NCBI GenBank assembly: GCA_000004985.1
Contig: GG738885.1
Length of the DNA stretch: 64,000 nucleotides
From: Naegleria gruberi
Taxonomy: Eukaryota
Strand: one strand, 5' to 3'
The translations under genes were made by a program, and so were the position numbers. Shown here piece by piece: positions 17,639-33,870 of this stretch. The stretch's first letter is position 1, and each line of letters opens with the position of its first letter. The notes under the pieces are model-generated. The model was not told the DNA's origin. It saw only the letters and a list, made by a program, of their open reading frames with translations, and made no database searches.

Positions 17639-20600
17639 TTATTTCCTGTTCTTGCTACTCTTAGCTGGCTTACGATACTCTTCATCATCACTGATTTCTT
17701 CATCTCTCTTTCGTTTTTGATTATCTTCTTCCATGGCTTCATTTTCTAATTCTTCCCATGTTGGAGCATCTTCTTCCTCTTCTTCCTCGAAATCATCATC
17801 GTCTTCATCATCATCTGAATCAATGTACATTTCTTCATCATCGTCATCAACGTCTTCTTCTTCACCTGATGATGGTTCATATTCTTCGGCTCCTTCTTCT
17901 TCTAAATCTTCTTCAACTTGTTCACCACTCATAACGAGGAAAGAGGTCCAACCATTTTCACTGTATGGATCCCAGTTGTCTTCTTCACGAATAGTCTTAA
18001 GAATTGGACCCCACTTCAAAGATTGAGCACCTTCAAAGTATAATACATTGCTGTTTGTTAACCAATCCTTAATCTTATCCAAATGTTCAACTGGTATAGA
18101 TGTTATGGAGTGGTAAGTAGTAAGGTCTTTCAAAATAAATACAATATCAAAGTTCTTCAATCCAAATTTCATTCTTTCAAAGTGAGCAATTTCAACTTCA
18201 TCCATTGTCAACACAAAGAAAGGAGCTTCAGAGAGGGAAACAAGGCAATTTAGAGTTGGTACTAAATTTACATTTGATTTACCAGTAGATGGGACACCAG
18301 TAAATTCTAAATCACGGAATGGAATTTCAAAATCAACGCCTGACTTTTCTTCAACTTTCTTTACAAATGAAGCAAATTCCTTATTCAATTTAATCTTCAA
18401 AAGTTGTTCTCTTTCTTCTTCTTCAATAGCTTCTCTTTCAGAAACAGCTTGTCTTCTGTGTCTACCGACCAAGTGATCAAATTCTTCAATAACTTCAGTA
18501 AAGAATTGAATATCATGGAAGGCCTTCTTACCAATCATAACTGGATTCTTAAGATGGAAGTGAATAAGAACAATAATATCATTCTTGGCTTCTTGGAAGA
18601 AGGCATGTTTGATATTAGAGTACATAATTTCAATCTTAGCACCCTTGTTACTGGAGAATCTCAAACCATTTTCATGAGCTTCAATTACACCAACTTGTTT
18701 CTTACCAGGTCTCATGAAGATATCAGCAAGTCTTGGAGCCTTTTGACCCTTACTAACTAATTTAAGTTTTGGTTGATCAACTTCCTTATTATTTTCATTG
18801 AATTCTCTGTCTCTTTCTTCTTGACCAATTTGTTTCTTCAATTCAAGGATTTCTCTTCTAGCACTTTCCAAACGTTTGGAATCCTTTGCTCTGTATGAAA
18901 TTTCCTTGACAAAGACAAGGTGCTTATACAACTTGGCTGGTTCGTAAACCTTACCAAAGTTGAGTTTAGTATTGTTAAAGTTGATTCTGAGATGTACATA
19001 TTCACCTTCGTCAGTTGTGTTTACGTTCTTAATAGCGGCAATGTGGAATGGAACGTGAGAACCATTAATTGGCAACAAGACAGATCCATGTCTCTTATCG
19101 ACAATGATTTGGTTGGCAACCAATTGAAGATTCTTTGGAATAGGTCCAGTATAACTAACAACTTCACCTTTAGCGAATTTTTCATCAGCTGACAACTTTT
19201 TCTTTCTTGATGAAGTGCTTGAAGATTCATCCTTTCCTTCGTATTCTTCTCTCTTTCTTTGGAGAAGAGATAATTGTCTCTTTCTTCTTTCTTCATCATT
19301 GAGAGTAGAGTCAGATGATTCAACACCTCTAACCAAACCTGAAGCAATAGCAGCACTACGCTTTTGTCTTTGTCCGAATTCTTGATCAATCACTTCTGGT
19401 TCAACCTCTTCAGCTGCTTCTTCATCTTCAATTGAGTAAGATATTTGATTATAGTCAATCTTAATACGAGTCAAAACTTGACATTCTTCACGAACCTCAA
19501 CTTGATCATTTGATCTTGGCATACCATAATCTTCAGTTGAAACTACAACTGTATCAGCAATGAACATAGAATATGGAGCACGACCTGGTTCTGGAACATT
19601 TTCAAATCCTAATTGAACAACAAATGTCATATTATTTGCAATTTCCATCATATTGCCTTCAGCCATTTGCATGATTGGAGAGGAAGGTTGCCATCCTATA
19701 CAGAAACCAACCTTCGTTGTGAAATGTGGAACCAACTCTGGTTTCTTCTTTCTTAAAAATTCCCTAGCAGCAGCATAAATACTATCCATTGTTTGACCAA
19801 CTCTAATCTTCTTTTTGACAAGGAATTGGTAGACATTGTACAAAATTTCGTAATCCATTTCCTTTTCCACACTAGCATTAATGAAATAAGTTCTTGCAAC
19901 CATTGAACAGAATGATTTGTATCTGATACCAAACATTAAAATGATGTTATCAAATTTAAGGATTTTGTCATCTGATTTAACTGATTCGTCATTGAAATCT
20001 AAGTTAAGATTATATCCACCTCCAGATTGAATAATAGGATTAAAAGCTAATGTTAAATCAATTTCTGCAGCAGCTTTTGTCACCATATTTTCAATATTTA
20101 CGGCAAATTGACTGTGTTTGATTTCCTTTCCTTCATCGATAACACCTTCCATATCGGTGACAATTTTCTTGACGAACTTAGTGGTGTATTGTGAAGAAGC
20201 TTTAGCAAGTTGTACTTCTTCTGGCTCTCTTGTACAGAGCAAATCTTGAAGGGCAATCTTGACATCTACAACTTTTTGCTTCTTGAGAGTATCAATATAT
20301 TCCTTGTGTAATGGTCCTGTGTGTTTTTCTCCTTCAATTACACCAATAACAGTATTTGATGAAAGTGAAAGAGTAGCAAAGAAATCGGAAGTTGTTCTCT
20401 TCTTATCCTTTTCAAAGAGTTTGATCTTTCCTGATGTATTTGGAATGTCTTGCAACATTTTAATTTTGTTAGCACTAAAGTTTGATCGTATTCGAATTTT
20501 GTCATGATCTGTTACTTACCTAGTGAAGAAGTGCACAGATTTTGTATGAGGTTCAAAGGAAATAATAGTATCAGTGAATTCGTATCCAATCAGCCACAAG

Positions 20601-23558: not shown

Positions 23559-25867
23559 ATGTCAAACACGATTGCAACCAAGATGAGCTGCAAGAGTGCT
23601 ATGGTTCTTGTTGTCCTGATGATGGTAATGATGTTGATGGCGATTGGATTGTTGGCCAAGAGTGTACAAATAGATAGTGAAGATTATGTTGTACCACCAG
23701 TGCCTTTACAAAAGGCTCCGTATGCAGAGTGGGCTCATCATCATTGGGTGTGGTAAGTGATCAGTGTGTTGATAGTTTTATTCAATTAGTGATGATGATT
23801 TTGTGTTATTGATGATTTTGTGGATGTCAAATGAAATTGTAGGATTGATCACGGTAGAGAAAATCAACAAACATTGATGAATCTTGTAAATAGTTATCTT
23901 TCTTATGATATTCCAGTTGGAGCTATTGATATTGACTCTGAATGGAGTACTGGCATTAACAACTTTATTATTGACAAGTAGGTTATTCTTTGAATTATTC
24001 ATCATCAAACGAAAATTTCATCATGCATGATGGCTTGTAATTGTGATAGGAACAAATTCCCAAACATGTATCAATTTGTGAAAACACTTCACTCTATGAA
24101 TATCAGAGTTATTTGTTGGGTGACTAGTGTTGTTAATGTGGATTCATCAAATTACAACGAAGGAAAAGAGAAAGGATATTATTTGAATTCTGGATCCACT
24201 GTTAAATGGTGGCATGGACACGGAAGTTTTATTGATTATTCCAATCCTGATGCATTGAATTGGTGGCATAATCAATTGAATAATTTATTAATTTTGAATG
24301 AAACTGACAAGTCTGTTGGTATTGATGGATGGGTAAGTGGAAAAATCAATGTGGTTGACCTCAATCCTTTCTTAGAAATGTGATGGAACTGATCCATATG
24401 TCTTTGAATTTATTTACATTCATGGCCATAAAGGACATATTTCAGAACGTGAATATGCTAACATGTATTATAGAGATTTCTTCTATTATACTAGACAAAT
24501 TAGAGGAGATGATGCTTTAATTATGGCTCGTCCAGTTGACTCGTTCTTAGGATATGTGTACCTTGATTTTGCTCCAAGAGATGTTGTAAGTTTTTTGAAA
24601 GTATTATGTTATTTAAAGTTGTTTGATTTAAAAAAAGGTTTTCAGTGGTTGGGTTGGTGATCAAGATCCAACATTTGAGGGTTTGCAAAATGCCATTAAG
24701 AACATGTTCCACTCAGCTTGGAATAAGTATGTTTCCTTTGGTATGTTGTTTTTTTAAGACATGTTTTAATAAGTCTTCCTAAAACCAGGTACTGATATTG
24801 CTGGTTATCGTGGAGGTGGAAAGAGAGATCTTTCTTTATACATTAGATGGTTCCAAATGGGAACATTCAATGGATTGATGGAAAATGGTGGTAATGGTGT
24901 TCATGAACGTAAGTATTAAATGGAAAATGGTAAAAATTACAATAATGAACTAGCATGGGGATATGATACTCCTAGTTTGAATGTCACAAATATTTACAGA
25001 AGATACGTTCATATTCACTATGAATTGAATCCTTACTTGTACTCTGCTGGTATTAATGCTTATGCCAACGACAAGAGTATCATGACACCACAATGGTAAG
25101 TTATCTTTATACTGTTTTCTATAATGTGATATTTCAGTTCTTACACCATGTTCACACCTGAATTTTGGACCTACACCCTTGGAGACAATATTCTCGTTAC
25201 TCCAATGGTTGATTCTTCTTCTAATGTTGTGGTGTTCTTCCCTAAGGGTAAATGGGTTGACTATTTCAATCATGATCGTATTATTGAAGGAGGTCAAACT
25301 ATGACTCTCAATTACACTTCATATGATCAATTCCCAGTTTTCTATAAGGCAGGAAGCATCTTGCCATTCAATATTACCTCAGATCATGTCAATTTGTTTG
25401 GTAATTCCAGAACTAACAGAGGTTATTTGACTATTGCAATTCACTATCCACATGATAATACTGAACAAGTTCAAGATATTGAATCACATGGAATCCAAGT
25501 TAGATATATTAAGAATACTGCTGACAATACTCTTTCTGTTTCAATTTCTGCTCCAAACTCTTTCAGAAAAGATTTCAAGAATTTGAAATTCTTGCTGGAT
25601 ATTCGTGGAATGGTTCCTTCATCACCATCAGGATATAAGATTTCTCAATATTCATTCTACGAAAAGGAGTATGTCAACTTGCAAAGGGTTGATAATGTTG
25701 AATCATTCAATCGTAACATTCCATCATTTGGTTCCTATGTTCACATGCCAATCTCCAAGTATTCTGTTTTCAATTCAAAGAATCAAATTGTTGATTCTCA
25801 AAAGCACCAACCAGTCTTGATTAAATTGCATGATATCATCAGAGGCGTCAAATTGGTCATTCAATAA
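23559..25867 (+). CDS. Glycoside hydrolase family 31 protein (alpha-glucosidase/xylosidase-like), eight exons
   Basis: The exons are 23559..23752 (signal peptide), 23843..23977, 24050..24332, 24376..24585, 24638..24740, 24789..24908, 24954..25095 and 25138..25867. They are joined by 42-90-nt GTAAGT/GTAGGT/GTATGT...AG introns. The spliced product carries GH31 blocks (WIDHGREN..GAIDIDSEWS, KWWHGHGSFIDYSNPDALNWW, GTDIAGYRGG..LYIRWFQMGTFNGLMEN, ERPWGYD). Confidence 0.8.
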
Positions 25868-25917: not shown

Positions 25918-26871
25918 TTACAAAATTGTGAACAAGCTCATTAAAATTACAATCATGAATCCAATAATCACCCTTGATGGTGATGATTGACTTTCTCCAT
26001 CACTCGAACGATTTGTCTTGGCAGTAAAAACTCCATAATATGAACCACTTCCAAATGTTCTCACATAACATTTCGTACACTGATTTGCATTATTACTTTT
26101 CCACCTATTTAAATCAAAAGCATCAGCAACCAATGCATGAACTTTCTTATTTCCAACAAGATTGAATTGTTCATCATAACTAGTTGGTACTCTTTCAGCA
26201 TATTTAAATGTCTGGTTGACTATATCTTCATAAATTGATCCAATATAGTAACCAATCTTGAAATTTGGTTTATCCATTTCAGATAATGAAGTAACATTAG
26301 GATAAATATCAATATCTAAATCACTTCTCAAGAATGCATCAAGTGAATATCCATATGGACAAGTGGCAAAGTTAACATCGGCAACTCTGTCAGCTGTAAT
26401 GGTTGTATCGGAAACTACCACATCACACCTTCCATCATTCACATAACTTTTCATAGTTTCGAAAAATCCCATTTCTGTTGTATTGACCAACACAAATTGT
26501 GTCTTTAATGAAAGTCTGAAATTCGAATTAATATTCGAAACAATGCTTTCACCCACCAATTGATACAAACCAATCCAAGCCTGTTCAATATCTTGTGCAT
26601 CTTCGTAACACATCTTGAGTGAGGAGACAGATGATGGAATTGGGTTTCGTGAAGGAAAGGAAGGAGAAACTGAACATGTAGGAGGACTCAGAGGTAAATT
26701 CTTATTCACATAATCGATAAATGTTGAGGAGGCGACCATTCTAGAAGTAGCAGCTTCTACTGCTTGGTTGAATTCAATACTCGAAACTATAGATTGTGAG
26801 ATGGAAACTTGACTAAAGAATAGAATAAACAATGAAAGACAAAGAGTAATACAGGAATGATATCTAGTCAT
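25918..26871 (-). CDS. Signal-peptide, C-terminally anchored protein with a periplasmic solute-binding (family 3, PBPb-like) fold
   Basis: A signal peptide (MTRYHSCITLCLSLFILFFSQVSISQ) leads the protein. The core has the two-lobed PBPb pattern (RCDVVVSDTTITADRVADVNFATCPYGYS ... KIGYYIGSIYEDIV ... KVHALVADAFDL). A hydrophobic C-terminus (VIIGFMIVILMSLFTIL) follows, suggesting a TM or GPI signal. The family call rests on pattern recognition only. Confidence 0.4.
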   Translation of the reverse strand: MTRYHSCITLCLSLFILFFSQVSISQSIVSSIEFNQAVEAATSRMVASSTFIDYVNKNLPLSPPTCSVSPSFPSRNPIPSSVSSLKMCYEDAQDIEQAWIGLYQLVGESIVSNINSNFRLSLKTQFVLVNTTEMGFFETMKSYVNDGRCDVVVSDTTITADRVADVNFATCPYGYSLDAFLRSDLDIDIYPNVTSLSEMDKPNFKIGYYIGSIYEDIVNQTFKYAERVPTSYDEQFNLVGNKKVHALVADAFDLNRWKSNNANQCTKCYVRTFGSGSYYGVFTAKTNRSSDGESQSSPSRVIIGFMIVILMSLFTIL

Positions 26872-27631
26872 TTTTTAGAATAATGATAACAGTATTTTCA
26901 CAAGCCATAGTTGAAAGATTCGTCAATAAAATGCGAAAGAAACCAGACGAAAACTAAATGCTACCAAAACAGTTCAATATTTCCTACTTTCATCACTACC
27001 ATTTTAGGAAGGATCATAGAAATTCGGCAAGAGATTGTTTGAATTGGTCACTTGTCATTTCGCATAACATTATATTCATGTTAGAATAGTATTGATGTTG
27101 GGGATTTGTTTTAGATGGAAAGTTGTCCGTTGTTGTATTTACATAAATATGAAGATTCGAATGAGATTCATATTCAAGTAGTACAGATTCAGAATCACCA
27201 TGTTTCGTTGGAGTTTCCTCTATTTTTCTTTGGGTTGTTAGTTACTTTCTTTCCTCACTTGTAGAGTTTCAAATTTCATTGCTTTACTTGCTTACTGCCT
27301 CACACATTTATTCGAAAAAGAAGAATTGAGATTTAATACGTAAATTGTTCTTTTTCAGCATGTTTTTGTGCGGATTTTTGACTTGACTATAATTAGTGGA
27401 GGTTGTTGAAGCGTATTCTATTGAGATTTTCACTTTCGTTGTATCTTCAATTCATAAATTTCAATTTTCTTTTTATTAAAATGAATATTCAATATTGGGG
27501 CCATCAATTTGTGAATTTGTTGGATTTTTCTCATATTTTGTAAAACTCGTCAACTAATCAGCAATCAAAGGAATGAGTCAAATTGTCGACATTTTAAAAG
27601 AAATGGATGATTTTTTCAAAAAGAAAACAAC

Positions 27632-28005: not shown

Positions 28006-30881
28006 TTACCACAAACATTGTTTCAACATGACCAAAATTCGTTTCCATTTTTCATTCTCTTTAGTGTCAGTATTTCTATTCGAATGCATGCCAATAATGT
28101 TTAAGAAAACTTGTTCTAACGAATCTTGATTCAAGGCAAATTCCTCAATTCCATTTCCAACCTTTCCTTCTTCCATGTGTTTGAATAAACCTGAGAGAGA
28201 TTTGATTTCTTCTTCCTCCTCTTCAATGTAAATGTTATTAGAAAGTGATATTGGAAAGTGTGGAATTTTGAAAATTGACATTGTTTCTGATAGAATTAAA
28301 TCCTTTCTTGCTTGTGGAACATACTTGAGCACATATTGTTCAGCCAAACTTTCGAATTGTTTCGGATAACTTATACTCAATACATAACCATCTCCAAACT
28401 TATTTTTCAATCTCAATCCAGATCCCAAACATTTAAATTCACCATTTGACATGATTGTCATCCTATCACACAAAACGTCAGCTTCTTCCATTGAGTGAGT
28501 TGTCAAAATGACAGTTCGATTCTTCTTTTGTTCTAAAATAATGTCCCATAAATGTCTTTTAGAAAGTGGATCTAATCCAGTGGTTGGTTCATCTAAGAGA
28601 ATTACCTTAGGATCTCCTATTAAGGAAATGGCAATTGACAGGCGACGTTTCATGCCTCCTGAGAGTGATTTTGAAGGTGGAGAATTCTTCATCTTGAGAG
28701 TTTCATTATCTAAACCAACTTGTTTCAATAAAGATTGAATGTGTTGTTTTTCATGTTTGATTTTGACAGCTTTCAATCTTGCATAAAATAATAAATGATC
28801 TTCACATGTCAAGTCTGGATATAAAATATCGAACTGAGAGGTCAGACCCATAATCTTGTGAATGGAATCCATTTCTGTACGAATATCTTTACCATATACG
28901 AAAGCAGTTCCAGAGCTAGGTCCAAACATTCCTGACAACATTGAAATAGTTGTTGATTTACCAGCTCCATTCAATCCCAATAAACCAAAGCATTCGGATT
29001 TACCAATTCTTAGACAAATATTGTTGACTGCTGTTTTTGAGTTGAATTTCTTTTCTAGATTAAAGAGAACAACACCAAAATCATTCTTCAACTTTCGAAT
29101 ATGTTCTTCCTGTTGATCTCGAGTAAGATTGGGTGGAGTTACTCGATTATTCTCCTCGGCAACATCTGAATCTATTGTTGCTATTTGATTTTCTTCATCT
29201 ATTGTTGGTTTTACTCTCTTTCCAGAGATTCGTTTCTTTAGAATATTTCTAAAAGGTTTCCATAACCAATTCATAAAGAAAAGTGGACTCTTTGACACGC
29301 CAAATGGTTGGGGAATGACAGCATCTAAATACAATCCAAGAATCATGTATACTAAACTCATTCCCAACATGTAAATCAACGAATAGAATACTGAGCTATT
29401 GTTGTAAATATCGACAAAGTTGGTGATGCAACCATTGCCAGAATTACACGCAGCTGTGGTAGCATATACGAAATGAGTGATTTGGAATGGAAAGATTGTC
29501 AAGATACCATATTTGGACTCTGGAACATTCGTATAAAGTGACGAATCTAGAATTACGCCAACCATTGGTCCAATAAGAACAATCAGATAGGAAACTATTG
29601 TGGCTACAATAGTAGTCCCAATACATGAAGATAATAAGAATGAGAAACTAATCAGCAAATTTCCCCACAATAAGAAAAATATAACTATTAGAAAGTTAGG
29701 AAACAAACATCTTTCCAACAACAATACTTACTCAAAATTATTGGGTTCGTCTTGGTAACAAAGCTGAAATTAAAGAGTGCAGAGAATATTATAAACATTA
29801 CAACTGAAATTGCATACATTCCATAAAAGAACATATACGAAACAAGAAAGTAATATCTCATCTTCATTCCCATAAGTTTCATCATTTCACGCAACTTGAA
29901 CTGCTTTTCCATGACAATTGTAAACGTAAAAGAAGGCAACAGCAAACATAATATCATTGGGAAAAACAATGAACCCAACAAATCCGAAATGTTAGCCGAA
30001 GGAAAACTAATGGTATAACTCATTTGAGATGTATAGGTTCTGATATTGTATCTACCAGTAATATTCTTCAAAAAGGCGTCATTCATCCAATGTTGCATGG
30101 AAACTCCCATTACATTTCTGCAACTTGTGATTACAAAGCTGATTGGAATGGTTTTGGACAAGTAGTCACAGAAAAGTGACTTTTCATTGGAATCGTATTG
30201 GATTGTGTAGTTTAAAATAGCTCTGGTTGATGTTGTCAATTGATTAATGATATAACCACCGACAGCATCAAGAGCATGTTTGGATTTTCCATCAGATGCC
30301 AATTTTTCATAAATGACATTTTCCATTTCTGTGCTATTGTTGAATGATGAGACAGAGTATGGAATTGATATCATACCAGTTGTTTCAAAAGTACCATTCA
30401 CTTGCATGGATGGAATTTTTCTTGAAAACGGACTGAAATCTTTCAAGAATCCATTCGAAACTCCAAACTTTGAAGAAAGTTGCCCAAAATTAATATTGTC
30501 CAGATAGTCCCTTCTATTGGAAGAAAAATAAATTGATTCTGGAGGATTGAAAGTCAAGTTTTGTGAATTCTTCACTTGAACCATCAGTTGAGATAGCTCA
30601 ACTGAGGTTGAGTTGACTTTCGTATTTGCCAAACCTTGTTCAGAAAGAAAATTATTGGTCAAATCTTTAGTAACCACTTGTAACAAGAATATAAACACCA
30701 AACAAATGACTGGAAAGAACAATAGACAGCAGTTGGACCTTCGTATTGATAATTCGAAACAATTCGAAAGAAACACTTACTTTTTCTGTTTCATTTGCAA
30801 TGAGAATGACTTGAAGAGTAAACCCCTAACTTGACTCAAATCTTTGGACAAGTTAGTGTCCATTATCAAGTCACTGTTCAT
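28006..30881 (-). CDS. ABC transporter, A subfamily half-transporter (TMD-NBD), three exons
   Basis: Exon 1 is 30881..30781 (MNSDLIMDTNLSKDLSQVRGLLFKSFSLQMKQK). A 42-nt intron (30739..30780) follows. Exon 2 runs 30738..29732 and begins KSNCCLLFFPVICLVFIFLL. The junction reproduces the ABCA N-terminus ([30 protein letters not shown]). A 47-nt intron (29685..29731) precedes exon 3 (29684..28006), which encodes the NBD with Walker A (LLGLNGAGKSTT), the signature (LSGGMKRRLSIAISLIG) and Walker B (ILLDEPTTGLDP). Confidence 0.85.
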
Positions 30882-31133: not shown

Positions 31134-33870
31134 ATGAAATATCTTGTTGAGGTGTTGAAACAAACACTTGTATTACTCAAGAAGAATGCCTTGCTATATG
31201 TAAGTGTTTCTTTATAGTTTCGTCTGACATGTAATTATTCCAAAGACAAGAAGATGGAAGTCCACATGTTTACAACTCGCTTCGCCAATCATTATTCTTG
31301 CCATCTTACTCATCATGTCTCTAATCATGGAAGTAAACTTTGACAAATCAATTCTTACTCAACCAACAAGAAATATTCATGAAATTGAAATTCCAAGAGA
31401 AGGAAATTCTAAAAAGTTACAATTCTATGAATGTAAAGCAGCACCTAATGTTCCATGCTACAAGATAGTCTACACATCTGATGGAATTTCATTTGGAGAA
31501 ACTGTCATGAGTCAACTTGTGTCAGATTATCAATTAAAACTTGACAAGGACTTTAAGAATTTCACATCTGTAAAAGAAATGGAAGCATGGATGTTTAGCC
31601 ACCAGAATGAAACAATGTTTGGTCTTGCGTTCATACCAAACTCCATTTTGGATACAGTTGATACTTTATCTTACACACTTTACTATAATAGGTCAAGAGA
31701 GGAATTACATTTTCCATTGTTGAGTTTACAAAACATAATTGATAACAATATAATCTATTTAAGAATGAAAGAGTTGAATAGAACTCAAGATTTGATGGAT
31801 TCTAGATACTCTGTCCAAGTTGACTATAAGAGTTTTCCTCAACCATTGACAACCAAAGATGGACAAACTTTAGTTTTCAAAATTTCAGGCCCAACCTTCT
31901 TCAGCATATCCGCAATGTTTATTTTAATTGTTTCTTTGAATAATTTGGTGGTTGAAAAAGAGTTTCGTCTCAGATTTTCAATGATCATGATGGGAATGAA
32001 AGAATCGGCATATTTCCTTTCATGGTTAATCACATTTTTAGTGATTAGTTTAGTTTTTGCTTTGGTGAATGTGTTGGGTGGAATGATCTTTCAAATGTCC
32101 ATATTTTTGAATGCAAATTTTGTTGTTTTGTTTCTTTTATTCTTTAGTTTCTCATTTTCACTTATTTGCCTTTCATTCTTTCTGTCAACTTTTATTAAGG
32201 AATCAAGAAATGCATTAATTCTTGGATTTACAGTTTTGGCTATATCATTTGTAAGTTCTCAATATTTTTTGTAATTTATAATATTGGAGAAAGATATTGA
32301 ACTTGACAGTTTCGAATGGAGGAATTGTTTATCTTCTCTATTCAGACAAAATTTCTCCCTTCTTCTATATCATCTTCTCATTCTATCCACCATTTAATTT
32401 TGCAAAGGTTTTCATTGATATTGCTTCTAAAACCTTACCTGAATACGATTCTGCACTGAGAAGATTTGTTAGTGGTCCTGGTTACTCTTTTACAGATTTT
32501 TTTGTTGGAAAGAACTCTTATGATTATGTACCTGCTTCTTGGATTGGAGTTGGTCTCTTGTTCCTAGACGGTTTGTTCTTTCTAATCCTGTATTGGTATT
32601 GTGACAATGTCATTTCTGATGGAAACGGTATTCGAAAGTCACCAATCTTTTTTCTCTATCCTTCCTATTGGGGAATTCAATGCTTTCGTTCAAAGGAACA
32701 CAAAGCACCATCAGATGATAACATTACCTTCTCCAAATTTGAAACAGATGATGTCAAGGTAGAATTTAAAAGAGCAAGAGATTGGAGTCAACCAGCAATT
32801 GTTAGAATCATTTCATTAAGGAAAACATTTTCTGGCTTTTTTTCAAGAATTGCACACAAAATACTTCCTCAAAAGTATGCTGACAAATTTTCAGAGAAGA
32901 AAGCACTCAAAGAGTTGAATCTTGTTGTGAGGGATAATGAATGTGTCAGTTTGTTAGGGCATAATGGAGCTGGCAAGTCAACTACAATGAATATTTTGAC
33001 AGGTTTGTTTGAGCAATCACATGGTGAGGCATATGTTTCTGATTTAGATGTTAAAACTTCCATTTCTGCTGTTAGAAAACAGCTTGGCATTTGTCCTCAA
33101 CATGACATTTTGTGGGATGATTTGACAGCTGAAGAACATTTGGAATTATTTGGAGATTTGAAAGGAATTCCAAGAAAAGAATGTAAAGAGCAAGTTAAAT
33201 CGTTATTAGATTCTGTCGAGCTGTCAAAAGTTGGACATCATTTGACAAAGACTTATTCTGGTGGAATGAAGAGAAGATTATCCATCTGTATTGCATGTAT
33301 TGGAAATCCTAAATTGATTCTTCTCGATGAACCAACAACTGGATTAGTAAGTAAGCTCTTCAATTATTCATTTACCAACTCTATTCGAAATAGGATCCCT
33401 ATTCAAGAAAGAAAGCTTGGAATTTAATTCACAACATGAAAAAAGGAAGAGCCATGATTTTGACAACACATGCAATGGATGAGGCTGATTATCTTTCGGA
33501 TAGAATTGCAATCATGGCCAATGGTGAGTTGAAATGTATTGGAACCTCACTTTCAATCAAATCTCAATATGGAAGTGGTTACAACTTGATGGTTGTGGCC
33601 AATTCAGGTCACGAAGATAGTATTCTCACATTAATCCAACATAAAGTTAAAGATCTCAAGGTTGTGAGTGAAAATGCTGGAAATTTCATATTTAACATTC
33701 CAAAGCATCAAGTGAGTGAACTTTCTGATTTGATTTCAGAAATGGAAAAGCAATCATCTAGAATAGATGGTATCATTAAGGATTGGGGAATTTCTCAAAC
33801 CACATTAGAAGAGGTCTACTTGAAAGTTACTCAAAAGTCAGAGTTTTCCTTTTCCAAAAACAAAACCTGA
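31134..33870 (+). CDS. ABC transporter, A subfamily half-transporter (TMD-NBD), four exons; divergent paralog of the upstream gene
   Basis: Exon 1 is 31134..31199 (MKYLVEVLKQTLVLLKKNALLY). A 46-nt intron (31200..31245) follows. Exon 2 (31246..32250) begins TRRWKSTCLQLASPIIILAILL. An approximately 43-nt intron precedes exon 3 (about 32294..33346), which encodes Walker A (LLGHNGAGKSTT) and the signature (YSGGMKRRLSICIACIG). A 47-nt intron (33347..33393) precedes exon 4 (33394..33870), which encodes DPYSRKKAWNLIHNMKKGRAMILTTHAMDEAD. Confidence 0.85.

What the first reader, a model, noticed from the sequence alone, without database searches (positions are those of the whole stretch)
25918..26871. 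Standalone membrane-anchored protein with a bacterial periplasmic solute-binding (family 3) fold
In eukaryotes this fold is normally embedded in ionotropic glutamate receptors. A separately encoded, signal-peptide-bearing copy with a hydrophobic C-terminus is unusual. It may represent horizontal acquisition from bacteria, which would be consistent with an intron-less single exon.
Basis: inference. Interest (0 to 1): 0.5.

Follow-up and report, generated by a model that had tools for sequence, protein, structure and literature searches.

The report
Surface-anchored, circularly permuted amino-acid-binding protein
This gene from a Naegleria-like amoeba encodes a cell-surface "Venus flytrap" protein of the bacterial amino-acid-binding type; it is not a recent bacterial import but belongs to a large, unstudied amoeba-specific family in which the fold is rearranged (its last two helices come first) and tethered to the membrane.

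Summary
Window 25918-26871 (-) is a 317-aa single-exon ORF with a signal peptide, an SBP_bac_3-type bilobed domain and a hydrophobic C-terminus.

The interpretation as a recent bacterial transfer is not supported:
- Codon usage and GC3 match the neighbours.
- No close bacterial relative turned up in 1.84 billion representatives or in the one-genome-per-species bacterial/archaeal collection.
- Every named relative among the ~105 clusters is a eukaryote: Naegleria, Willaertia, Heterolobosea sp. BB2, and more distantly the Amoebozoa Pelomyxa, Cavostelium and Nematostelium. In Cavostelium and Nematostelium the domain sits on a transmembrane helix plus protein kinase.

New finding: the family looks like a circular permutant of the SBP fold. 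Its N-terminal two helices match the C-terminal helices of bacterial SBPs. It also has six conserved cysteines and ends in a GPI-signal-like tail.

The residues that clamp an amino acid's backbone (T157, R162, S212, D250) are retained. The most likely function is a lipid-anchored surface receptor for an amino-acid-like ligand. The ligand, the anchor type and the signalling partner are untested.

The parts
25918..26871 (-). Complete single-exon CDS, 317 aa plus stop.
   Evidence: ORF listing. Upstream in-frame TAA. Chance expectation 2e-6 per window. Codon usage as in the neighbours.
26794..26871 (-). Predicted signal peptide, aa 1-26. It has a basic n-region (MTRYH), a hydrophobic core (ITLCLSLFILFF) and a small-residue c-region (SQVSISQ).
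   Evidence: Read from the sequence. 52 of 62 family members that cover this end have an N-terminal hydrophobic segment. No dedicated predictor was available.
26692..26784 (-). Two N-terminal helices (aa 30-60, EFNQAVEAATSRMVASSTFIDYVNKN). They are homologous to the last two helices of canonical bacterial SBP_bac_3 proteins, which is the signature of circular permutation.
   Evidence: AF2 helices 32-47 and 49-58, with 10-residue block pLDDT means of 97-98. A 40-position profile of this segment hits almost only SBP_bac_3 chains in the PDB, always at their extreme C-terminus. Moving it behind the core gives collinear full-length alignments and about +10 bits, while a reversed-segment control gives no gain.
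26623..26691 (-). Pro/Ser-rich connector (aa 61-83) carrying conserved Cys66 and Pro73. It joins the transplanted helices to the first beta-strand of lobe 1.
   Evidence: No regular secondary structure in the AF2 model. Cys66 in 67/68 and Pro73 in 33/35 family members.
26014..26622 (-). Bilobed alpha/beta Venus-flytrap core (aa 84-286), ending directly after the last beta-strand with no C-terminal helices.
26353..26427 (-). Most conserved motif, aa 149-173: CDVVVSDTTITADRVADVNFATCPY. It contains Cys149, Thr157, Arg162 (the alpha-carboxylate clamp) and Cys171. Ser212 (nt 26236-26238) and Asp250 (nt 26122-26124) complete the site.
   Evidence: hhalign to GlnBP maps T157=T70, R162=R75, S212=T118 and D250=D157 (the GlnBP sequence was checked against 1ggg). 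Family conservation: R162 77/79, S/T212 70/75, D/E250 63/72. The role of the GlnBP residues comes from my own knowledge of the GlnBP-Gln crystal structure.
25918..26013 (-). C-terminal anchoring signal plus stop codon. A low-confidence Ser/Gly/Asp-rich spacer (aa 287-300) has candidate omega sites at S290 or G292. It is followed by a 17-residue hydrophobic tail (aa 301-317, nt 25921-25971) that ends the protein.
   Evidence: Sequence. pLDDT falls to 54 for aa 291-300. 48 of 64 family members covering this end finish in such a tail with 0-2 residues after it. In amoebozoan homologues the same position is a TM helix followed by KRR and a kinase. No GPI predictor was available.

Best explanation
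This is a native gene of a heterolobosean amoeba. The neighbouring SPT16 is closest, among named proteins, to Willaertia magna. The product enters the secretory pathway and folds into a two-lobed Venus-flytrap domain of the SBP_bac_3 / type-II periplasmic-binding-protein class.

It is held on the outer face of the plasma membrane by its C-terminus. The most likely anchor is a GPI lipid that replaces the terminal hydrophobic peptide.

It belongs to a large subfamily seen so far only in Heterolobosea and Amoebozoa. That subfamily differs from bacterial SBPs in three ways:
1. The fold is circularly permuted. The two helices that end a bacterial SBP are encoded first, so the chain leaves the domain after the last beta-strand and runs straight into the membrane anchor.
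2. Six conserved cysteines are present, presumably forming disulfides.
3. It is membrane-tethered: a GPI-like tail in Heterolobosea, or a TM helix plus tyrosine-kinase-like kinase in some Amoebozoa.

The Thr/Arg of lobe 1, the Ser/Thr of lobe 2 and the Asp that together grip the alpha-carboxylate and alpha-ammonium of a bound amino acid are retained. Residues around them vary between paralogues. I therefore infer that the protein captures a free amino acid, or a close derivative, by lobe closure, and acts as the ligand-sensing subunit of a surface receptor for food or chemical sensing. It would signal through an unidentified transmembrane partner.

Shown: the ORF, the fold, family membership, taxonomic distribution, native codon usage, conservation of the binding residues and sequence-level evidence for the permutation.

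Inferred: the GPI anchor, the ligand class, and sensing rather than uptake.
For: ORF and architecture.

Binding residues: hhalign to GlnBP and family conservation.

Permutation:
- The N-segment profile hits the C-termini of SBP_bac_3 chains. All of the top 7 hits and 11 of 15 overall are such chains.
- The re-permuted profile aligns through the chain ends and scores higher: 6h30 61.6 to 91.0 bits, 4zv1 71.7 to 82.4, 5eyf 65.4 to 76.6, 1ggg 42.7 to 53.0.
- Offline control for GlnBP: core only 42.7, permuted 53.0, reversed segment 42.6 bits. The GluR0-like P0111 behaves the same way: 43.1 / 53.0 / 41.9.
- The model has two confident N-terminal helices and none after the last strand.

Eukaryotic family. 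Receptor-kinase fusions in Cavostelium, in an unnamed Logan contig and in Nematostelium share the N-terminal helix motif and Cys171.

Native gene: codon usage, SPT16 59% identical to Willaertia, no bacterial relative.

Precedent for a GPI-anchored Venus-flytrap protein that controls motility and phagocytosis in an amoeba: EhVFT (PMC12965686).
Against: - The target on its own fails Pfam's gathering threshold.
- The permutation rests on sequence profiles with individually marginal E-values (0.014-1.5) and on secondary-structure order. I could not superimpose coordinates.
- T157 is only moderately conserved (27 T, 20 N and 9 S of 80).
- No ligand, anchor or partner has been tested for any family member.
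- A terminal hydrophobic stretch with no cytoplasmic residues could also be a C-terminal TM anchor.
- Disulfide pairing is undetermined, and some amoebozoan members lack Cys88 or Cys149.
- EhVFT is of the other PBP class (type I), and its ligand was not found either. It is therefore an analogy, not evidence of homology.
Confidence: 0.6

Rival explanations
1. Recent horizontal transfer of a bacterial ABC-transporter solute-binding protein gene into this eukaryote.
For: The fold and the best PDB matches are bacterial amino-acid SBPs. The gene has no intron.
Against: - Codon usage and GC3 are indistinguishable from the neighbours.
- No close bacterial homologue exists. The best clearly bacterial hit is at E=2e-7 over about 100 aa, and the genome-contig scan was empty.
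- Dozens of eukaryotic paralogues and orthologues share derived features: the permutation, the cysteines and the membrane tail.
- Intronlessness is the rule in this window.
Confidence: 0.03
2. The protein is a nutrient-capture protein rather than a sensor. It is GPI-anchored, concentrates amino acids at the surface, and hands them to a permease or carries them in by endocytosis. This would be the eukaryotic counterpart of lipid-tethered SBPs of Gram-positive bacteria.
For: The amino-acid clamp is conserved. The protein is tethered. Amoebae are strong pinocytosers (own knowledge). The circularly permuted bacterial SBP TpMglB-2 and its homologues are also mostly tethered proteins (PMC4990184).
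Against: - No bacterial-type importer permease (BPD_transp_1) is nearby. The adjacent ABC genes are ABCA-like (ABC2_membrane_3 + ABC_tran) and contain no SBP domain.
- Homologous ectodomains are fused to kinases in Amoebozoa, which points to signalling.
- The family is heavily expanded and divergent, as chemoreceptor families are.
Confidence: 0.2
3. The domain has lost small-molecule binding and serves as a structural, adhesion or surface-coat protein, or as a type-I membrane protein with a terminal TM helix.
For: No ligand is known for any member. The analogous EhVFT showed no ITC signal with CaCl2, GABA or sodium L-glutamate. The family is fast-evolving, with only 42% identity to the best hit. 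There are four N-glycosylation sequons.
Against: R162, S/T212 and D/E250 are kept in 88-97% of about 75 divergent clusters. That is hard to explain without selection on the pocket. The model is closest to closed, ligand-bound SBP structures.
Confidence: 0.12
4. The protein is an enzyme derived from an SBP, such as a cyclohexadienyl/arogenate dehydratase.
For: AncCDT-1, AncCDT-3 and cyclohexadienyl dehydratases are among the top PDB hits.
Confidence: 0.03

Closest known systems
Bacterial family-3 (cluster F, type II) amino-acid solute-binding proteins of ABC importers: GlnBP, HisJ/LAO, ArtJ, ArgBP and the GlnPQ substrate-binding domains (Pfam PF00497 SBP_bac_3)
   Different: - The order of structural elements is permuted: the terminal helices come first.
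- There are six conserved cysteines.
- It has a eukaryotic signal peptide and a GPI-like C-terminal signal.
- No cognate ABC importer is present.
- Sequence identity is only 12-22%.
- The target alone is below Pfam's gathering score.
EhVFT of Entamoeba histolytica (CL6EHI_096680), a GPI-anchored atypical Venus-flytrap receptor (PMC12965686)
   Same: It is a stand-alone Venus-flytrap protein of an amoeba, with a signal peptide, no TM domain and a C-terminal hydrophobic GPI signal. An amino-acid-binding motif is retained and the ligand is unknown. In Entamoeba it affects motility and phagocytosis.
   Different: EhVFT is of the PBP type I / ANF-receptor class, related to class C GPCR ectodomains. 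It is not SBP_bac_3, comes from a different eukaryotic supergroup, and no permutation is reported. The similarity is in architecture, not homology at family level.
Ionotropic glutamate receptor ligand-binding domains, including bacterial GluR0
   Different: There is no pore domain inserted between S1 and S2, no Lig_chan or Lig_chan-Glu_bd Pfam hit, and the terminal helices are permuted. Similarity is weaker than to bacterial transport SBPs.
TpMglB-2 (Tp0684) of Treponema pallidum, the founding member of circularly permuted 'type Ic / cluster Bc' SBPs (PMC4990184)
   Same: It is a natural circular permutation of a periplasmic-binding-protein fold that still binds its ligand. Its homologues are mostly membrane- or wall-tethered.
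   Different: It belongs to a different SBP class (type I, a sugar binder), is bacterial, and has a different permutation point.
PfVFT1 (PF3D7_0606800) of Plasmodium falciparum, PDB 5jkq
   Different: Identity is only 9%. It has no identifiable membrane anchor and is reported as probably not GPI-anchored. It is not among the 60 PDB sequence hits listed for the family profile, out of 100 at E<1e-3.
Amoebozoan receptor kinases with the same ectodomain (Cavostelium apophysatum EP01114_P015199, Nematostelium gracile EP01118_P003916; unpublished as far as I could find)
   Same: They share the N-terminal helix motif (NQLTSVLNAAIDDMWSDGDIDAIYSEWF), Cys66, Cys171, Cys265, Arg162 and the VHA motif. The hydrophobic segment is at the same place.
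   Different: There the hydrophobic segment is a true TM helix followed by KRR and a PK_Tyr_Ser-Thr kinase domain. The window protein stops at the end of the hydrophobic segment.

Membership tests
SBP_bac_3 (PF00497) / type II PBP, cluster F | Significant match to the family HMM at the curated threshold. | tested here: inconclusive
   The target alone scores 22.7 bits against a 26.4-bit cut-off, E=8.9e-5. 19 of 35 family members match at E<0.01, best 1.4e-9. The family profile against PDB SBPs gives 1.9e-25. Homology is secure at family level, but the single sequence is sub-threshold.
SBP_bac_3 (PF00497) / type II PBP, cluster F | Two alpha/beta lobes joined by a hinge, with the ligand cleft between them. 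| tested here: met
SBP_bac_3 (PF00497) / type II PBP, cluster F | Canonical order of elements: beta1 at the N-terminus and two helices returning to lobe 1 at the C-terminus. | tested here: not met
   The helices are encoded at aa 30-60 and the domain ends after the last strand. The N-segment matches the C-termini of SBPs. The re-permuted profile becomes collinear with a score gain, and the reversed control shows no gain. No coordinate superposition was possible.
SBP_bac_3 (PF00497) / type II PBP, cluster F | Residues binding the alpha-carboxylate and alpha-ammonium of an amino acid (GlnBP T70, R75, T118, D157). | tested here: met
   T157, R162, S212 and D250 by hhalign. Family conservation is 77/79, 70/75 and 63/72 for R, S/T and D/E. 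Binding itself was not tested.
SBP_bac_3 (PF00497) / type II PBP, cluster F | Works with a binding-protein-dependent ABC importer (BPD_transp_1 permease) or a bacterial sensor. | tested here: not met
   The neighbouring ABC genes are ABCA-like (ABC2_membrane_3 + ABC_tran) with no SBP domain. None of the ten neighbouring ORFs scanned (15135-36274) hit BPD_transp_1.
Ionotropic glutamate receptor | Ligand-binding domain split by a pore-forming Lig_chan domain (S1-M1-M3-S2). | tested here: not met
   No PF00060 or PF10613 hit. The chain through the domain is continuous. The only hydrophobic segments are the signal peptide and the C-terminal tail.
GPI-anchored surface protein | N-terminal signal peptide. 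| tested here: inconclusive
   The sequence has the classical n/h/c pattern. No SignalP-type tool was available.
GPI-anchored surface protein | C-terminal signal: a small omega residue, a polar spacer of about 6-10 residues and a 12-20 residue hydrophobic tail that ends the protein. | tested here: inconclusive
   S290/G292 are candidate omega sites, with a spacer up to R300 and a 17-aa tail to the last residue. 48 of 64 homologues have the same pattern. This is a heuristic only, with no NetGPI and no biochemistry.
GPI-anchored surface protein | Release by PI-PLC, or lipid labelling. | not testable with these tools
   Needs experiment.
EhVFT-like / class C GPCR-type Venus-flytrap (PBP type I, ANF_receptor) | PBP type I fold and the 8-residue amino-acid motif of ANF-receptor domains. 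| tested here: not met
   All the best fold and sequence matches are type II SBP_bac_3 proteins. There is no ANF_receptor Pfam hit.
Heterolobosea/Amoebozoa permuted SBP3 subfamily (defined here) | N-terminal helix pair, Cys66...Cys171 pattern, R162 motif, VHA-x3-D motif and a C-terminal membrane segment. | tested here: met
   Alignments A1 and A2. hmmsearch of the A1 profile on the window gives 4e-103 for this ORF only. The best hit, N. fowleri FDP41_000021, is at 3.4e-69 and 42% identity.

The most novel reading that the evidence does not exclude
Amoeboid protists of two supergroups (Heterolobosea and Amoebozoa) share a so-far undescribed, circularly permuted version of the bacterial amino-acid-binding fold. 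They use it as an expanded repertoire of surface chemoreceptors for amino acids or related prey- or host-derived metabolites. In Heterolobosea it is GPI-anchored and works through a co-receptor. In some Amoebozoa it is wired directly to a kinase. The permutation may have arisen by a register-shifted excision from a tandem array of binding domains, such as GlnPQ-type SBD1-SBD2 proteins. It places the chain exit next to the membrane.
Probability: 0.3. Interest if true: 0.65.

Novelty: new variant of a known kind. Interest (0 to 1): 0.45.

Why it matters
How free-living and pathogenic amoebae such as Naegleria sense bacteria, nutrients or host tissue is poorly understood. A large family of surface-exposed amino-acid-type binding domains is a concrete candidate receptor set. 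Its homologues are wired to kinases in other amoebae. The family can be tested directly by ligand screens on ectodomains, PI-PLC release and knock-down in N. gruberi.

For protein evolution, this would be a natural circular permutation of the family-3 SBP fold. That fold is the one that gave rise to iGluR ligand-binding domains and is widely used for biosensor engineering. The permutation is associated with membrane tethering, in parallel with the permuted sugar-binding protein of Treponema.

The result also corrects an easy mis-call. A 'bacterial' Pfam name plus an intron-less gene is not evidence of recent horizontal transfer in an intron-poor protist genome.

Tried and rejected
- The word-indexed homology search with the single protein found nothing. 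With the family alignment it found only 6 proteins. The exhaustive search was needed.
- An exact look-up of the protein on public contigs found nothing. The neighbouring SPT16 is present 100% identical on an ENA metagenome contig, so the organism has been sampled but not named.
- Single-sequence AF2 was useless, with pLDDT 36.
- The afdb50 fold library was not available, so I got no structure-based survey of eukaryotic relatives.
- The search for related loci with the alignment failed for lack of a conserved 7-10 column stretch. With the single protein it found no relative in bacterial/archaeal genomes or JGI metagenomes.
- Synteny: the N. fowleri homologue sits between catalase, PNP_UDP_1 and CLAMP genes. 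This does not resemble the window, where the ORF lies between a GH31 gene and ABCA genes. Orthology is therefore not established.
- I considered that the adjacent ABC transporters might be partners or carry an SBP-like extracellular domain. They do not.
- I tested whether the native-order profile bridges domain boundaries in tandem bacterial SBD proteins, which would support the tandem-array origin. It does not. Only weak non-collinear secondary hits to the C-terminal helices of GlnBP and a GluR0-like protein appeared.
- No formal phylogeny was built. The session held too few bacterial and iGluR sequences for a meaningful test, and the sequences had been selected by similarity to the query.
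- Literature searches for Naegleria with solute-binding, Venus flytrap or receptor-kinase SBP ectodomains found no description of this family.
- There are no tRNA or Rfam hits in the window.
Full report
**1. What is in the sequence**

Window 25918-26871 on the minus strand is a single 317-codon ORF with an ATG start. A TAA lies two codons upstream. An open frame of this length is expected about 2e-6 times per window at this base composition.

No ORF of 60 aa or more overlaps it on either strand. No tRNA or Rfam feature is present in the window.

The product has these parts:
- It starts with a classical signal-peptide pattern, MTRYH followed by a hydrophobic core and SQVSISQ.
- It has six cysteines after the signal peptide (66, 88, 149, 171, 265, 268).
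- It has four N-x-S/T sequons.
- It ends in a 17-residue uncharged hydrophobic stretch that runs to the stop codon, preceded by NRSSDGESQSSPSR.

**2. Genomic setting and organism**

The window has 30-37% GC and is densely packed with long ORFs. These encode eukaryotic housekeeping proteins: FACT/SPT16, Dsc3, a PPR protein, MgtE, a GH31 glycosidase and two ABCA-like half-transporters.

The SPT16 ORF occurs 100% identical on an ENA metagenome contig. Its best named relative is Willaertia magna at 59% identity, with unnamed environmental sequences at 71-77%. The organism is thus a heterolobosean amoeba related to Willaertia and Naegleria, not represented by a named genome in the collections.

The target's GC3 (0.25) and its synonymous-codon log-likelihood under the neighbours' usage (0.258) lie in the middle of the range of 27 other ORFs, which span 0.21-0.37 and 0.09-0.34.

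**3. Homology and fold**

Alone, the protein gives only a sub-threshold Pfam hit to SBP_bac_3: E=8.9e-5, 22.7 bits against a 26.4-bit cut-off, aa 137-176. It also gives weak NCBIfam and PDB hits to amino-acid binding proteins.

The word-indexed protein search found nothing. The exhaustive phmmer over 1.84 billion cluster representatives found 105 relatives, 47 of them below 1e-10.

The named relatives are:
- Naegleria fowleri FDP41_000021, the best hit, at 42% identity and E=3e-69. UniProt auto-labels it 'Solute-binding protein family 3/N-terminal domain-containing protein'.
- N. gruberi, N. lovaniensis and Willaertia magna.
- Heterolobosea sp. BB2, Cavostelium apophysatum and Nematostelium gracile.
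- Pelomyxa schiedti.

A 35-sequence alignment (A1) turned the weak signal into a decisive one:
- 19 of 35 members hit PF00497.
- The profile hits 100 PDB sequences at E<1e-3. It is led by the reconstructed amino-acid binders AncCDT-1 (1.9e-25) and AncQR (5.8e-19) and by many Glu-, Gln-, Arg- and Cys-binding proteins.
- GluR0 scores 3e-10 and a Drosophila kainate-type ligand-binding domain 5e-6.

**4. Ligand site**

I aligned the family profile to E. coli GlnBP with hhalign, at 96% probability. I recalled the GlnBP sequence from memory and verified it against 1ggg; it differs at one residue.

The alignment maps target T157, R162, S212 and D250 onto GlnBP T70, R75, T118 and D157. From my own knowledge of the GlnBP-glutamine structure, these are the residues that hold the alpha-carboxylate and alpha-ammonium groups of the bound amino acid. 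The same logic (Arg, Ser/Thr, acidic residue) operates in iGluRs.

Across all relatives, Arg162 is kept in 77/79, Ser/Thr212 in 70/75 and Asp/Glu250 in 63/72. Neighbouring pocket positions (155, 157, 209) vary. This pattern fits a family that binds amino-acid-like ligands with differing side-chain specificity. Binding itself is inferred, not shown.

**5. A circular permutation**

The family has about 35 conserved residues ahead of the first beta-strand, which bacterial SBPs lack. It also lacks the two helices that end bacterial SBPs. In the model the chain has helices at 32-47 and 49-58 (block-mean pLDDT 97-98), then a Pro/Ser-rich connector, then the core. Nothing follows the last strand (269-284) except a low-confidence spacer and the tail.

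The N-terminal motif (target EFNQAVEAATSRMVASSTFIDYVNKN; Cavostelium NQLTSVLNAAIDDMWSDGDIDAIYSEWF) resembles the C-terminal '...vnkALkelkedGtydkiykKWf' of SBPs. I tested this in three ways.

(a) A 40-position profile of the N-terminal segment alone (A3) was searched against all 177,635 PDB sequences.
- All of the top seven hits, and eleven of fifteen overall, are SBP_bac_3 proteins.
- Every one of those matches lies at the extreme C-terminus of the chain: 5eyf 209-236 of 245, GlnPQ SBD 195-223 of 225, HisJ 203-225 of 238, AncQR 210-230 of 233, TTC0807 224-252 of 260.
- Individual E-values are marginal (0.014-1.5). The consistency is what carries weight.

(b) I moved the segment behind the core in 28 family sequences (A4) and searched the PDB again.
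- Alignments that had stopped near residue 170-198 of the bacterial chains now ran collinearly to their ends: AncCDT-1 61-232 of 235, AncQR 58-229 of 233, GlnBP 53-219 of 226.
- Scores rose: 6h30 61.6 to 91.0 bits, 4zv1 71.7 to 82.4, 5eyf 65.4 to 76.6, 1ggg 42.7 to 53.0.

(c) In an offline control with identical sequences, I compared core only, permuted, and core with the segment reversed.
- GlnBP scored 42.7, 53.0 and 42.6 bits respectively.
- A GluR0-like channel (P0111) scored 43.1, 53.0 and 41.9.
- Some domains of multi-domain bacterial proteins gained little.

The native-order profile gives a non-collinear secondary match of the N-segment to GlnBP 194-219.

I could not superimpose coordinates, so the spatial equivalence of the helices is inferred. 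A natural circular permutation has been described for a type-I sugar-binding protein, TpMglB-2, whose homologues are mostly tethered proteins (PMC4990184). I found no report for family 3.

**6. Membrane attachment**

Of 64 relatives that cover the end of the domain, 48 finish in a 12-24 residue uncharged hydrophobic stretch. This stretch has 0-2 residues after it and a Ser/Gly/Asn/Ala-rich stretch before it. That is the pattern of a GPI-attachment signal. In the target, S290 or G292 are plausible omega sites.

In Cavostelium, Nematostelium and an unnamed contig, the homologous ectodomain has the same N-terminal helices, Cys66, Cys171, Cys265 and Arg162. There it is followed at the same position by a TM helix, a KRR stop-transfer and a PK_Tyr_Ser-Thr kinase domain.

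The module is therefore used as a receptor ectodomain in other amoebae. The window protein is the anchor-only version.

A GPI-anchored Venus-flytrap protein of the other PBP class, EhVFT, was recently shown in Entamoeba to be surface-exposed, GPI-dependent and needed for normal motility and phagocytosis. Its ligand was not found (PMC12965686). The Naegleria pangenome paper reports evidence of GPI-anchored proteins in the genus (PMC9928731).

**7. Origin**

Nothing supports a recent bacterial transfer:
- Composition is native.
- No bacterial relative was found by pattern plus tblastn in one genome for each of 185,579 bacterial and archaeal species or in JGI metagenomes.
- In the exhaustive search the first clearly bacterial protein, a five-domain SBP-permease fusion, appears at E=2e-7 over about 100 residues.
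- The lack of introns is uninformative in this genome. The N. fowleri homologue is also intronless, in a non-syntenic location.

The protein is not an iGluR derivative in any detectable sense either. There is no pore remnant, and similarity to iGluR ligand-binding domains is weaker than to bacterial SBPs.

The shared permutation and cysteines argue that the heterolobosean and amoebozoan proteins form one eukaryotic subfamily. Whether it spread vertically or between amoebae, and from which bacterial lineage the fold ultimately came, needs a proper phylogeny. I could not build one with the sequences at hand.

The permuted order (helices, then linker, then strand 1) is what one would get by cutting a unit out of register from a tandem SBD array such as GlnPQ. 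This is speculation, and my one test of it was uninformative.

**8. Verdict**

The 'horizontal acquisition' reading is not supported.

The gene is one member of a sizeable, uncharacterised family specific to amoeboid protists (Heterolobosea and Amoebozoa). The proteins are surface-tethered and disulfide-rich, appear to be circularly permuted family-3 binding domains, and most probably bind amino-acid-like ligands.

This is a new variant of a known kind. It is of moderate interest for amoeba sensory biology and for the evolution of the periplasmic-binding-protein fold.

Noticed in passing
window 28006-30776 (-) and 31315-33427 (+): Two divergently oriented ABCA-like half-transporter genes (ABC2_membrane_3 + ABC_tran), each split into two adjacent long ORFs. 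This suggests a short intron or frame change in each. Neither contains an SBP-like domain.
   Followed up: partly
window 24027-25867 (+): A GH31 glycosidase gene appears as several consecutive ORF pieces (24027-24383, 24463-24660, 25148-25867), so it probably has short introns. It converges on the target gene, with only about 50 bp between the two stop codons.
   Followed up: no
window 17639-20458 (-); locus L001: The SPT16 ORF is 100% identical to a gene on ENA metagenome contig ERZ929261 k127_79634 (5.3 kb). That contig also carries the Dsc3 and EBP neighbours. The SPT16 N-lobe is called there as a separate 86-aa gene, so it is probably an unrecognised intron. The window's organism has thus been sampled environmentally but is unnamed.
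   Followed up: partly
proteins P0059, P0085, P0099 (Cavostelium, Nematostelium, unnamed Logan contig): These are receptor kinases of protosteloid amoebae whose ectodomain is the same permuted SBP3 module, followed by a TM helix and a PK_Tyr_Ser-Thr domain. I found no description of them in the searchable literature.
   Followed up: partly
protein P0080 (JGI metagenome, 324 aa): This relative has an N-terminal TM segment instead of a cleavable signal peptide. It also has a weak ABC2_membrane_3 hit (E=2.6e-4) spanning the SBP domain. It could be a fragment of an ABCA-type transporter whose extracellular loop is an SBP3 domain, or the hit could be spurious.
   Followed up: no
proteins P0005 and P0010 (Naegleria lovaniensis C9374_002535 and C9374_002538): Two divergent paralogues have locus tags three apart on the same 689-kb contig. 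This suggests local clusters of family members in Naegleria. The window holds a single copy.
   Followed up: no
window 26872-27577: About 700 bp upstream of the target's ATG contain no ORF of 60 aa or more on either strand and no tRNA or Rfam match. This is a long intergenic stretch for this compact window.
   Followed up: no
proteins P0006 (N. gruberi, 462 aa) and P0014 (Willaertia magna, 557 aa): These family members have extra N-terminal regions of about 200-250 aa with no Pfam match ahead of the SBP module. They may be longer architectures or mis-merged gene models.
   Followed up: no
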